Shown here: piece after piece, positions 50,101 through 53,100 of the stretch
How positions within the stretch are numbered: position 1 is the first letter of the stretch
How the letters are laid out: each line of letters begins with the position of its first letter
Assembly (NCBI RefSeq): GCF_000027125.1
Contig: NC_017626.1
From: Escherichia coli 042
GTDB lineage: Bacteria > Pseudomonadota > Gammaproteobacteria > Enterobacterales > Enterobacteriaceae
Length of the DNA: 64,000 nt
Strand: one strand, 5' to 3'
Program-made: the position numbers

Positions 50101-53100
50101 TAACCGTACAAAGAAATGGCTATTTATATGCGACAGTTTATTCGACAAAACGCCCAATTGCAGCCATTGTTGCGACTTCATATCAACGTCTTATAGCGCA
50201 TTTTTATAATCATCTTATTTTTGCATTACCCGCCGGTATTTTGGGGAGTCTTGTTCTGTTATTACTCTGGCTACGTATTCGACAAAACTATTTGTCTCCC
50301 AAACGCAAATTGCAACGCGCCCTCGAAAAACATCAACTTTGCCTTTATTACCAGCCAATAATCGATATCAAAACAGAAAAATGTATCGGAGCTGAAGCAT
50401 TGTTACGTTGGCCTGGTGAGCAGGGGCAAGTAATGAATCCGGCAGAGTTTATTCCGCTGGCAGAAAAGGAGGGGATGATCGAACAGATAACTGATTATGT
50501 TATTGATAATGTCTTCCGCGATCTGGGCGTGTACCTGGCAACACATGTCGATCGCTATGTTTCTATTAACCTGTCGGCCTCCGATTTTCATACGTCACGG
50601 TTGATAGCGCGAACCAATCAGAAAACAGAGCAATACGCGGTGCGTCCACAGCAAATTAAATTTGAAGTGACTGAACATGCATTTCTTGATGTCGACAAAA
50701 TGACACCAATTATTCTGGCTTTCCGCCAGGCTGGTTACGAAGTGGCAATTGATGATTTTGGTATTGGCTACTCTAACTTGCATAACCTTAAATCATTGAA
50801 TGTCGATATTTTGAAAATCGATAAATCGTTTGTTGAGACGCTGACCACCCATAAAACCAGTCATTTGATTGCGGAACACATCATCGAGCTGGCGCACAGT
50901 CTGGGGTTAAAAACGATCGCTGAAGGCGTCGAAACTGAGGAGCAGGTTAACTGGCTGCGCAAACGCGGCGTGCGCTATTGCCAGGGATGGTTCTTTGCGA
51001 AGGCGATGCCGCCGCAGGTGTTTATGCAATGGATGGAGCAATTACCCGCGCGGGGGTTAACGCGCGGGTAATAAAACTACAGGCGGTGGCGATAATCGCT
51101 GGGAGTGCGATCAAACTGCCGACGGAAAACGCGGGAGAAGGTCTGCTGCGAGACATAACCCAGGTCCATTGCGATATCAAAAATCGGACGCTCGGTGGTG
51201 CGTAACTCAACGGCGGCCAGTAACAGGCGGCGTTGGCGAATGTAATCACCAAGTGTCTGATGCGTCACCGTGCGGAACATCCGCTGTAAGTACCACTTTG
51301 AATAGCCTGATTTTTTTGCGACGACATCAATGTTAAGCGGCTGGTCAATATGCTCGTCAATCCATGCGATAAGATCCTGAATAATTTTCTGATGGGACAT
51401 AAATCTGCCTCTTTTCAGTGTTCAGTTCGTTAATTCATCTGTTGGGGAGTATAATTCCTCAAGTTAACTTGAGGTAAAGCGATTTATGGAAAAGAAATTA
51501 CCCCGCATTAAAGCGCTGCTAACCCCCGGCGAAGTGGCAAAACGCAGCGGTGTGGCGGTATCGGCGCTGCATTTCTATGAAAGCAAAGGGTTGATTACCA
51601 GTGTCCGTAATAGCGGCAATCAGCGCCGATATAAACGTGATGTGTTGCGATATGTCGCAATCATCAAAATTGCTCAGCGTATTGGCATTCCGCTGGCGAC
51701 CATTCGTGAAGCATTTGGCGTGTTGCCCGAAGGGCATACATTAAGTGCGAAAGAGTGGAAACAGCTTTCGTCCCAATGGCGAGAAGAGTTGGATCGGCGC
51801 ATTCATACCTTAGTGGCGCTGCGTGACGAACTGGACGGATGTATTGGTTGTGGCTGCCTTTCGCGCAGTGATTGCCCATTGCGTAACCCGGGCGACCGTT
51901 TAGGAGAAGAAGGCACAGGCGCACGCTTGCTGGAAGATGAACAAAACTAAAGCGCCACAAGGGCGCTTTAGTTTGTTTTCCGGTCTTTGTCTTTCTCTCT
52001 ATCCCGCTGGTACACAGGAGGGTTTCCCCCGACGTCAACACACCTCATTCGAGCACGTGGTGGAGGTTCCGGTTGGTGTTGATGCTTTAATTGTATGTCA
52101 CCGGCGTTTCTTCGCCAGTGTAAAAGTACACTTTTTAGCCGCAATATTTTTGTCATCTCAGACGATTTTTTATCGCAATCCTGAACGGTATGCGGCTCGA
52201 TAACGCTGCAATCTTGCGCATCGACGATAACGTTTGCGCATCAATTGCCTGGTTTTTCATCGTCAAGACAATAAAAGAGAAAAAAGCAGCAAACTTCGGT
52301 TGAAAAAGCCGCTATGATCGCCGGATAATCGTTTGCTTTTTTTACCACCCGTTTTGTATGCGCGGAGCTAAACGTTTGCTTTTTTGCGACGCACCAATTT
52401 GTCGCAAACCTGGAGCAGGAAGATAACGTTTCGCTGGCAGGGGATTGTCCGCCACGCATCTTGACGAAAATTAAACTCTCAGGGGATGTTTTCTTATGTC
52501 TACGCCATCAGCGCGTACCGGCGGTTCACTCGACGCCTGGTTTAAAATTTCACAACGTGGAAGCACTGTCCGTCAGGAAGTGGTTGCCGGGTTAACAACG
52601 TTTCTGGCGATGGTCTACTCGGTTATCGTCGTTCCAGGCATGTTGGGTAAAGCGGGCTTCCCGCCTGCGGCAGTTTTCGTTGCGACCTGTCTGGTTGCCG
52701 GACTCGGTTCTATCGTGATGGGTCTGTGGGCTAATCTGCCGTTGGCGATTGGTTGCGCCATCTCCCTGACGGCGTTTACCGCATTCAGTCTGGTGCTGGG
52801 GCAACATATTAGCGTACCTGTCGCGCTGGGTGCCGTGTTCCTGATGGGTGTGCTGTTTACGATAATTTCTGCCACGGGTATTCGTAGCTGGATTTTGCGC
52901 AACTTGCCGCACGGTGTGGCGCACGGCACGGGGATCGGTATCGGTCTGTTCCTGCTGCTGATTGCTGCGAATGGTGTCGGTCTGGTGATTAAAAACCCGC
53001 TTGATGGTCTGCCCGTTGCGCTGGGTGATTTCGCGACCTTCCCGGTGATTATGTCACTGGTAGGTCTGGCGGTGATCATCGGCCTGGAAAAACTGAAAGT

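What the first reader, a model, noticed from the sequence alone, without database searches (positions are those of the whole stretch)
51948..52090. Bidirectional terminator hairpin at the soxR 3' end and probable SraL/RyjA sRNA on the opposite strand
Immediately after the soxR stop codon is a GC-rich hairpin (aaagcgccacaagggcgcttt) flanked by an A-run upstream and a T-run downstream, so it can terminate transcripts from both strands. An sRNA (SraL/RyjA) is known to lie between soxR and yjcD, so the roughly 140 nt to the right of this hairpin on the minus strand are the probable sRNA; the six-frame ORFs called across 51937-52203 are therefore unlikely to be coding.
Basis: partly seen in the sequence, partly recalled or inferred. 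Interest (0 to 1): 0.35.

Follow-up and report, generated by a model that had tools for sequence, protein, structure and literature searches.

The report
Known sRNA SraL/RyjA beside soxR

Summary
The observation and the interpretation both hold. Window 52083..51943 (minus strand) is a full-length match to Rfam RF01408 sraL (153 bits, E 1e-34). It is 141/141 identical to the annotated K-12 ncRNA ryjA (b4459), with the same 8-nt overlap of the soxR 3' end. A 13-bp hairpin (51944-51974) overlaps the soxR stop codon and has U-rich tails on both strands. It is certainly the sRNA's intrinsic terminator. It is plausibly also soxR's, but I found no 3'-end data to show that.

In 97 enterobacterial loci the sRNA is convergent with soxR in 96. 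Its 5' stem shows compensatory changes. A sigma-S-type promoter (-10 TACAAT followed by TAA, -35-like CTGGCG) is conserved.

The overlapping ORFs are not coding: they have no Pfam match, indels do not preserve frame, and no frame is open in more than 38% of homologs.

Published work (mostly Salmonella) shows an RpoS-dependent RNA associated with Hfq and ProQ that represses tig and protects rho mRNA from premature termination. The E. coli tig leader keeps the 7+3 bp pairing site.

The feature is already known and of low interest.

The parts
51943..52083 (-). sraL / ryjA small RNA gene (141 nt; +1 = 52083, 3' end = 51943)
   Evidence: Rfam RF01408 model positions 1-142/142, 153.3 bits, E 1.1e-34. 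141/141 identical to K-12 ryjA b4459. At least 99% identical in 5400 of 5420 E. coli genomes that hold it.
51944..51974 (.). Shared terminator hairpin: 13-bp stem (AAACUAAAGCGCC / GGCGCUUUAGUUU) with a 5-nt loop. It corresponds to sRNA nt 110-140 and overlaps the soxR stop codon (51948-51950).
   Evidence: The terminator scan calls it on the minus strand. Plus-strand fold is -28.5 kcal/mol, z -6.6. The stem is nearly invariant in 89 distinct homologs. The soxR-sense tail is T-rich in most genera.
52087..52095 (-). Sigma-S-type -10 region: TACAAT (-12..-7, 52095..52090) followed by TAA (-6..-4, 52089..52087)
   Evidence: Read from the sequence. In 95 distinct upstream sequences A-11, A-9 and T-7 are 100% conserved, T-12 is 87%, and the T-6/A-5/A-4 positions are 83-98%. 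PMC3753932 reports RpoS dependence and RpoS ChIP at this promoter in Salmonella.
52113..52118 (-). -35-like element CTGGCG (-35..-30), 17-bp spacer to the -10
   Evidence: Consensus CTGGC[A/G] with G-32 100% and T-34 88% across 95 upstream sequences. The match to TTGACA is weak, and the simple sigma-70 scan did not call it.
52034..52083 (-). 5' stem-loop domain of the sRNA: nt 1-7 pair with nt 44-50, enclosing a variable apical region
   Evidence: Four of the seven pairs carry double-sided compensatory changes, in 17, 24, 6 and 18 sequences. The window's MFE fold gives nearly the same helix (nt 2-8 with 43-49).
52050..52059 (-). Predicted tig-pairing segment, sRNA nt 25-34 (CACGUGCUCG)
   Evidence: The best accessibility-corrected interaction with the E. 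coli tig leader is at -29..-19, 7+3 bp, total -10.3 kcal/mol. 3 of 60 shuffled sRNAs do as well. The geometry matches the 7+3 bp site upstream of the SD that was validated by compensatory mutations in Salmonella (PMC3753932).
51980..52003 (-). Highly conserved, mostly unpaired purine-rich stretch GAUAGAGAGAAAGACAAAGACCGG (sRNA nt 81-104)
   Evidence: Most columns are invariant or at least 90% conserved in alignment A2, outside the bases forced by my search pattern. Its role (chaperone or target contact) is inferred, not shown.
51486..51950 (+). soxR coding sequence (context); its last 8 nt overlap the sRNA 3' end
   Evidence: ORF list and K-12 and PGAP annotation. soxR is convergent with sraL in 96 of 97 loci.

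Best explanation
The region is the chromosomal gene for the trans-acting small RNA SraL (RyjA). It is transcribed from the minus strand, starting at 52083 from a sigma-S-type promoter (-10 TACAAT plus TAA, weak -35 CTGGCG). Transcription ends at a Rho-independent terminator (stem 51974..51944 plus U-tail) that overlaps the soxR stop codon. Because soxR runs into the same palindrome from the other side, and the sRNA's A-tract reads as a U-tract on the soxR strand, the hairpin most likely also ends soxR transcription.

The RNA folds into a 5' stem-loop, a small central two-hairpin domain, a conserved purine-rich single-stranded stretch and the 13-bp terminator hairpin. From published work, mainly in Salmonella, it accumulates in stationary phase under RpoS. 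It is stabilised by Hfq and ProQ and destabilised by PAP I polyadenylation. It base-pairs with the tig 5' UTR just upstream of the SD to lower trigger factor, and with the rho leader to block premature Rho-dependent termination.

Shown here: identity, boundaries, structure with covariation, promoter and terminator conservation, synteny, absence of coding signal, and presence of the tig pairing site in E. coli. Inferred: RpoS dependence, protein partners and target regulation in this strain, and termination of soxR at the hairpin.
For: Rfam sraL full-length hit at 153.3 bits. K-12 ncRNA ryjA is annotated at the equivalent position with the same 8-nt soxR overlap, and identity is 141/141. Present in 5420 of 5426 complete E. 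coli genomes; the sRNA alone is at least 99% identical in 5400, whereas the 301-nt region with flanks reaches that in only 596. Minus-strand terminator call.

Among 97 enterobacterial homologs, soxR is convergent in 96, and eleven distant ones all re-hit RF01408. Covariation: 99% of cells paired, 73 compensatory cells against 20.2 +/- 3.5 in shuffles (0/500), and slid controls 35-58% paired. Conserved -10/TAA and -35-like elements.

tig pairing is 7+3 bp at -29..-19. Literature: PMC3753932 (RpoS, tig), PMC6582626 and PMC12360218 (rho leader antitermination), PMC6315103 and PMC7192607 (ProQ/Hfq), PMC5389530 (E. coli RyjA full-length transcript polyadenylated, +3.84 log2 in pcnB).
Against: Nothing contradicts the identity. 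The weak points are as follows:
- The whole-RNA fold energy is only marginally better than shuffles (z -1.94).
- In-silico target pairing is only modestly better than shuffled sRNAs (tig 3/60, rho 6/60).
- The functional experiments were done in Salmonella, not in this E. coli lineage.
- The plus-strand tail after the full stem has only 4 T in 8, so the scanner did not call a soxR-sense terminator.
- In some genera soxR ends 20-140 nt before the hairpin.
- PGAP leaves the sRNA unannotated in most genomes, which reflects annotation practice rather than evidence against it.
Confidence: 0.93

Rival explanations
1. The hairpin terminates only the sRNA. soxR transcription ends elsewhere, by read-through, Rho, or collision with the convergent polymerase, so the terminator is not truly bidirectional.
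For: The strict scan calls the terminator on the minus strand only. After the full 13-bp stem the plus-strand tail is GTTTTCCG (4 T of 8). In several Citrobacter and Enterobacter loci soxR stops 20-140 nt before the hairpin, and in one locus 503 nt before it. A few genera have only 3-5 T in the soxR-sense tail. No 3'-end data were found.
Against: With the GC core taken as the stem, the soxR-sense tail is UUUAGUUUGUUUU (10 U of 13). The hairpin is very stable on the plus strand. In most genera the hairpin abuts or overlaps the soxR stop, and the T-rich tail is kept with 6-8 T of 12. No other terminator-like site lies downstream of soxR in 51951-52600.
Confidence: 0.25
2. The RNA acts mainly in cis, as an antisense partner of the soxR mRNA 3' end. 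The two transcripts share a fully complementary terminator of about 30-40 nt, and this would tune soxR mRNA stability or convergent transcription in stationary phase.
For: The 8-nt CDS overlap and shared hairpin are conserved. The 12 terminator pairs are almost invariant across 89 homologs, which is unusual for a plain terminator.
Against: Trans targets were validated by compensatory mutation (tig, PMC3753932) and reported for rho (PMC6582626). Both complementary segments are locked in stable hairpins. In several genera soxR and the hairpin are separated. No paper I found reports an effect on soxR.
Confidence: 0.08
3. One of the overlapping ORFs (88 aa on the plus strand at 51937-52203, or 62 aa on the minus strand at 51968-52156) encodes a small protein.
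For: The ORFs are open in the window. Two soxR-strand frames are stop-free across the sRNA region in the window.
Against: No Pfam match even at E <= 1. sRNA length is spread evenly over residues mod 3 (36/35/27), so indels ignore frame. No frame is open across the sRNA in more than 34 of 89 homologs. No CDS is annotated here in K-12 or in the PGAP records listed. The substitution pattern is compensatory base-pairing.
Confidence: 0.02

Closest known systems
SraL / RyjA sRNA (Rfam RF01408; E. coli K-12 b4459; Salmonella sraL)
   Same: Sequence is 141/141 identical to K-12. Position, strand, 8-nt overlap with soxR, promoter, terminator and secondary structure are all the same. It is the same gene.
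   Different: Nothing within the sRNA. There are four SNPs against K-12 in the 117 nt upstream of the start (two within 50 nt: one in the -35/-10 spacer, one upstream of the -35-like element) and two SNPs in the soxR 3' end.
RpoS-dependent enterobacterial sRNAs such as SdsR
   Same: A conserved core-genome sRNA with a sigma-S-type -10 region, induced in stationary phase (PMC3753932).
   Different: Unrelated sequence and different targets. SraL is also a ProQ ligand (PMC6315103).
sRNAs that counteract Rho-dependent termination in mRNA leaders (DsrA/ArcZ/RprA on rpoS)
   Same: They pair in a long 5' leader and prevent premature Rho termination (PMC6582626, PMC12360218).
   Different: SraL's target is rho itself. 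The predicted E. coli pairing site here is weak (6/60 shuffles) and I could not compare it with the published site, because the 2019 paper is not held.
Bidirectional intrinsic terminators between convergent genes
   Same: A single GC-rich palindrome flanked by an A-tract and a T-tract between two convergent transcription units.
   Different: One of the two units is an sRNA whose terminator also serves as its chaperone-binding 3' end. soxR-sense termination has not been demonstrated.

Membership tests
SraL/RyjA sRNA (Rfam RF01408) | Full-length covariance-model match above the gathering score | tested here: met
   153.3 bits against a gathering score of 39, E 1.1e-34, model positions 1-142/142.
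SraL/RyjA sRNA (Rfam RF01408) | Sequence identity to the type gene (K-12 ryjA b4459) | tested here: met
   141/141 identical.
SraL/RyjA sRNA (Rfam RF01408) | Genomic context: downstream of soxR, on the opposite strand, convergent with it | tested here: met
   soxS-soxR-(sraL)-ghxP order in the window and in K-12. Convergent with soxR in 96 of 97 loci.
SraL/RyjA sRNA (Rfam RF01408) | Conserved secondary structure supported by covariation | tested here: met
   99% of cells paired and 8 pairs with double-sided changes. 73 compensatory cells against 20.2 +/- 3.5 in shuffles, 0/500. Support comes mainly from the 5' stem; the other helices are invariant, and helices 2 and 4 are partly fixed by my search pattern.
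SraL/RyjA sRNA (Rfam RF01408) | Rho-independent terminator at the 3' end | tested here: met
   13-bp stem, 5-nt loop and U-tail called on the minus strand. The hairpin is present in the MFE and centroid folds.
SraL/RyjA sRNA (Rfam RF01408) | RpoS-type promoter (conserved -10 with downstream TAA, degenerate -35) | tested here: met
   TACAAT plus TAA and CTGGCG with a 17-bp spacer, conserved across 95 upstream sequences. This is sequence-level evidence only.
SraL/RyjA sRNA (Rfam RF01408) | Stationary-phase, RpoS-dependent expression of a ~140-nt transcript | not testable with these tools
   Literature only: PMC3753932 (Salmonella), PMC5389530 and bioRxiv 10.1101/2024.06.20.599902 (E. coli).
SraL/RyjA sRNA (Rfam RF01408) | Association with Hfq and/or ProQ | not testable with these tools
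   Literature only: PMC3753932, PMC6315103 and PMC7192607. The 13-bp terminator hairpin fits the reported ~12-bp hairpin ProQ motif, which is an inference.
SraL/RyjA sRNA (Rfam RF01408) | Base-pairing site for the tig 5' UTR just upstream of the SD | tested here: inconclusive
   7+3 bp between sRNA nt 25-34 and tig -29..-19, total -10.3 kcal/mol. This is the top prediction and matches the published geometry, but 3 of 60 shuffled sRNAs score as well.
SraL/RyjA sRNA (Rfam RF01408) | Base-pairing site for the rho leader | tested here: inconclusive
   The best site is sRNA nt 29-48 with rho -244..-226, total -7.8 kcal/mol, with 6 of 60 shuffles as good. The published site could not be read.
Bidirectional intrinsic terminator | One stable GC-rich hairpin between convergent transcription units | tested here: met
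Bidirectional intrinsic terminator | U-tract following the hairpin on both strands | tested here: inconclusive
   The minus strand passes the scan. The plus strand fails the scanner's threshold of 5 T in 8 after the full stem. However, the plus strand has 10 U of 13 after the GC core and 6-8 T of 12 in most genera.
Bidirectional intrinsic terminator | Mapped RNA 3' ends on both strands at the hairpin | not testable with these tools
   The held Term-seq supplements have no soxR or ryjA entry and may have been cut on storage.

The most novel reading that the evidence does not exclude
The 12 predicted terminator pairs are almost completely invariant across about 90 enterobacterial species, while the 5' stem covaries freely. 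The terminator also overlaps the soxR stop codon. Together these could mean the hairpin is under sequence-specific selection for more than termination. One possibility is a dual-use element that ends both soxR and sraL and serves as a specific ProQ/Hfq docking site. Another is cis-antisense cross-talk between SraL and the complementary 3' end of soxR mRNA, linking the oxidative-stress regulator to the stationary-phase programme.
Probability: 0.12. Interest if true: 0.35.

Novelty: already known. Interest (0 to 1): 0.08.

Why it matters
It matters mainly for annotation. PGAP records for most E. coli genomes list only soxR under this stretch, so a scan that relies on CDS calls would see an 'empty' intergenic region with spurious ORFs. 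Recognising it as sraL/ryjA removes three false ORFs and places a sigma-S promoter and a shared terminator correctly. Biologically, SraL is one of the few sRNAs linked to protein folding (tig) and to the level of the termination factor Rho, but all of that is published.

Tried and rejected
1. Whole-molecule RNAduplex of SraL against the tig and rho leaders. It forces implausible duplexes over 100 nt and scores no better than shuffles (125/300 and 240/300). I replaced it with 20-nt windows plus accessibility penalties.

2. Looking for mapped 3' ends of soxR and ryjA in the supplements of the E. coli Term-seq paper PMC7815308. There are no entries; the stored files may be cut, so this is uninformative.

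3. Reading Silva et al. 2019 (PMC6386699) for the rho pairing site. The paper is not held, so only reviews could be cited.

4. A crude 'longest ORF overlapping the sRNA' metric. It was confounded by ORFs antisense to soxR. I replaced it with frame-openness across the sRNA in 89 homologs.

5. The simple sigma-70 promoter scan did not call the sraL promoter, because its -35 is degenerate. The promoter was established from conservation instead.

6. The coding hypothesis for the three ORFs was rejected.

7. L024 (an archaeal MAG) matched the search pattern by chance. It has no terminator motif, no soxR and no Rfam hit, and was excluded.

Full report
**What is in the sequence.** soxR occupies 51486-51950 on the plus strand, soxS 51077-51400 on the minus strand, and ghxP (yjcD) 52496-53845 on the plus strand. 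The soxR stop codon is at 51948-51950. The string aaagcgccacaagggcgcttt lies at 51949-51969, inside a longer perfect palindrome at 51944-51974 (13-bp stem, 5-nt loop). It is preceded by aacaaaac and followed by agtttgtttt.

As plus-strand RNA the hairpin folds at -28.5 kcal/mol, against -11.05 +/- 2.65 for shuffles (z -6.6). The consensus terminator scan calls it on the minus strand only. After the full stem the plus-strand tail has 4 T in 8, one short of the scanner's threshold. The only correction is that the hairpin overlaps the soxR stop codon rather than following it.

**Identity.** A scan of the whole window against Rfam gives, as its best hit, RF01408 sraL at 52083..51943 on the minus strand. 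It covers model positions 1-142 of 142 at 153.3 bits (gathering score 39), E 1.1e-34. In E. coli K-12 MG1655 the ncRNA ryjA (b4459) is annotated at 4277926..4278066 on the minus strand and overlaps soxR (ending at 4277933) by 8 nt. That is exactly the geometry in the window.

The sRNA is present in 5420 of 5426 complete E. coli genomes and is at least 99% identical in 5400 of them. The 301-nt stretch including flanks reaches 99% in only 596. The RNA is therefore more constrained than its surroundings. PGAP-annotated genomes list only soxR under the match, so the sRNA is simply left unannotated in most records.

**Comparative evidence.** One DNA-pattern scan of 100,044 species genomes returned 98 loci. 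Of these, 97 carry the terminator motif. The exception is an archaeal chance hit with no soxR and no Rfam match. Eleven of the most distant loci (Shimwellia, Kosakonia, Cedecea, Klebsiella, Atlantibacter, Phytobacter and others) all re-hit RF01408 full length at 104-165 bits.

soxR is convergent with the sRNA in 96 of the 97 loci. In most of them the sRNA 3' end lies within about -11 to +8 nt of the soxR stop. Some Citrobacter and Enterobacter loci have 20-140 nt in between, and one locus has 503 nt.

In an alignment of 89 distinct sequences, RNAalifold predicts:
- a 5' stem (nt 1-7 with 44-50 of the window RNA);
- an inner CCUC/GAGG helix;
- a small central two-hairpin domain;
- the terminator.

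Counting pairs gives 99.0% of cells paired. There are 73 cells with changes on both sides, against 20.2 +/- 3.5 in column shuffles (0 of 500 reach the observed value). Partner-slid controls are only 35-58% paired. The covariation sits almost entirely in the 5' stem, where four pairs are changed on both sides in 17, 24, 6 and 18 sequences.

Two caveats apply. Columns 12-22 and 63-74 are invariant because my search pattern required them. The whole-RNA fold energy of the window sequence alone is only marginally better than shuffles (z -1.94).

**Promoter.** Anchoring 95 distinct upstream sequences at +1 shows TA[C/G]A[A/C]T at -12..-7, with A-11, A-9 and T-7 invariant. This is followed by TAA at -6..-4 (83-98%), and CTGGC[A/G] lies at -35..-30 (G-32 invariant) with a 17-bp spacer.

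In the window these elements are TACAAT (52095..52090), TAA (52089..52087) and CTGGCG (52118..52113) on the minus strand. This matches the RpoS-type promoter described for sraL, where RpoS dependence and RpoS ChIP enrichment were shown in Salmonella (PMC3753932). The simple sigma-70 scan misses it because the -35 is degenerate.

**The ORFs are not coding.** The translations at 51937-52200 (+), 51971-52156 (-) and 51667-52041 (-) have no Pfam match even at E <= 1. sRNA lengths in homologs range from 134 to 151 nt and are spread evenly over residues mod 3 (36/35/27). No reading frame on either strand is open across the sRNA in more than 34 of 89 homologs. The two soxR-strand frames that are stop-free across the sRNA in the window, one of which is the frame of the 88-aa ORF, stay open in only 26 and 34 of 89 homologs.

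**How it works.** The mechanism comes from the literature and was worked out mainly in Salmonella.
- SraL is about 140 nt, is induced in stationary phase, and is transcribed directly by RpoS-RNA polymerase.
- It lowers trigger factor by pairing a 5'-proximal segment with the tig leader, in two segments of 7 and 3 bp just upstream of the SD. This was proven by compensatory mutations (PMC3753932).
- It also pairs with the rho leader and prevents premature Rho-dependent termination. Its site overlaps a putative rut site (PMC6582626, PMC12360218), and ProQ supports this action (PMC7192607).
- Its level depends on Hfq and, in LB, on ProQ, and it is induced about 25-fold inside host cells (PMC3753932, PMC6315103).
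- In E. coli the full-length RyjA transcript is polyadenylated and rises 3.84 log2 in a pcnB mutant (PMC5389530). It is listed among the stationary-phase-induced sRNAs known to be regulated by RpoS (bioRxiv 10.1101/2024.06.20.599902).

I tested whether the window RNA can pair with the E. coli targets. An accessibility-corrected local search puts SraL nt 25-34 (CACGUGCUCG) against tig -29..-19 (CGAGCAC-U-GUG) as the top hit. It is 7+3 bp at -10.3 kcal/mol and reproduces the published geometry. Three of 60 dinucleotide-shuffled sRNAs do as well, so this is consistent with the mechanism but is not independent proof. The best rho-leader site (nt 29-48 with -244..-226, -7.8 kcal/mol) is weaker still (6/60), and I could not check it against the 2019 paper, which is not held.

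**The bidirectional-terminator claim.** Several points favour it:
- One very stable palindrome is shared by two convergent units.
- With the GC core taken as the stem, the soxR-sense tail is UUUAGUUUGUUUU.
- This T-rich tail (6-8 T of 12) and the abutting position are kept in most genera.
- No other terminator-like site follows soxR.

Several points count against it or remain untested:
- The strict scan does not call the terminator on the plus strand.
- A few genera have poorer tails or a gap between soxR and the hairpin.
- I found no mapped soxR 3' end.

I put soxR termination at this hairpin at about 0.75.

**Comparison with the known, and novelty.** This is not merely similar to SraL/RyjA; it is that gene, base for base. 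Every membership feature that could be tested was met, apart from the two target-pairing predictions, which were inconclusive.

One mildly curious point is that the 12 predicted terminator pairs are almost invariant across about 90 species, while the 5' stem covaries. This may reflect dual use (soxR stop codon and terminator, sRNA terminator, ProQ/Hfq docking) or cis-antisense cross-talk with soxR mRNA. Nothing here tests that.

**Verdict.** The feature is already known.

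Noticed in passing
window 9402-9598 (-): Full-length Lysine riboswitch aptamer (RF00168, 99.5 bits, E 3e-25).
   Followed up: no
window 11493-11641 (-): Match to the enterobacterial sRNA STnc430 (RF02053, 88.3 bits against a gathering score of 47), ending in a terminator-like hairpin.
   Followed up: no
window 59321-59664 (+) and 19175-19245 (+): Five matches to naRNA4/CssrE (RF02564, 67-85 bits). Four are in tandem about 90 nt apart, which looks like an array of REP/BIME-type extragenic palindromes.
   Followed up: no
window 51457-51474: A perfect 18-bp palindrome CCTCAAGTTAACTTGAGG lies in the soxS-soxR divergent intergenic region. 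From my own knowledge this is the SoxR operator within the soxS promoter; I did not test it.
   Followed up: no
window 52229-52379 (+): Three copies of A[A/T]CGTTTGC (at 52229, 52328 and 52371) cluster within 150 bp upstream of ghxP. A fourth near-copy, AACGTTTCG, seen by eye at 52427-52435, does not fit the pattern. The window-wide count of 4 is at chance level, but the clustering is not. The copies resemble PurR-box half-sites (AAACGTTTGC), which would fit a purine transporter gene. A sigma-70-like promoter is predicted at 52300-52329.
   Followed up: partly
L039 (MAG 'Bacillota bacterium' JAEWQV010000038.1) and L058 ('Chryseobacterium sp. 18061' CACSKA010000007.1): Assemblies labelled as non-enterobacterial carry an enterobacterial soxR-sraL locus. 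In L039 the 235-nt stretch from -60 to +175 around the sRNA start matches the K-12 sequence at every position where the two could be compared. These are probably contamination or mis-binned contigs.
   Followed up: no
NZ_CM132948.1 (E. coli strain 405), hit H20: The sRNA match is split into two places, with only 79% covered in the best one and no annotated feature beneath it. This suggests an insertion or rearrangement inside sraL in this strain. Three matches also lie on records typed as plasmids.
   Followed up: no
L018, L026, L028, L035, L038, L055, L070, L072, L090 (Citrobacter, Enterobacter, Lelliottia and an unclassified Enterobacteriaceae isolate): In these genera roughly 80-140 nt (503 nt in L072) separate the soxR stop from the sraL terminator, instead of the usual overlap. 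The shared-terminator arrangement is therefore not universal, and soxR may have its own terminator there.
   Followed up: no
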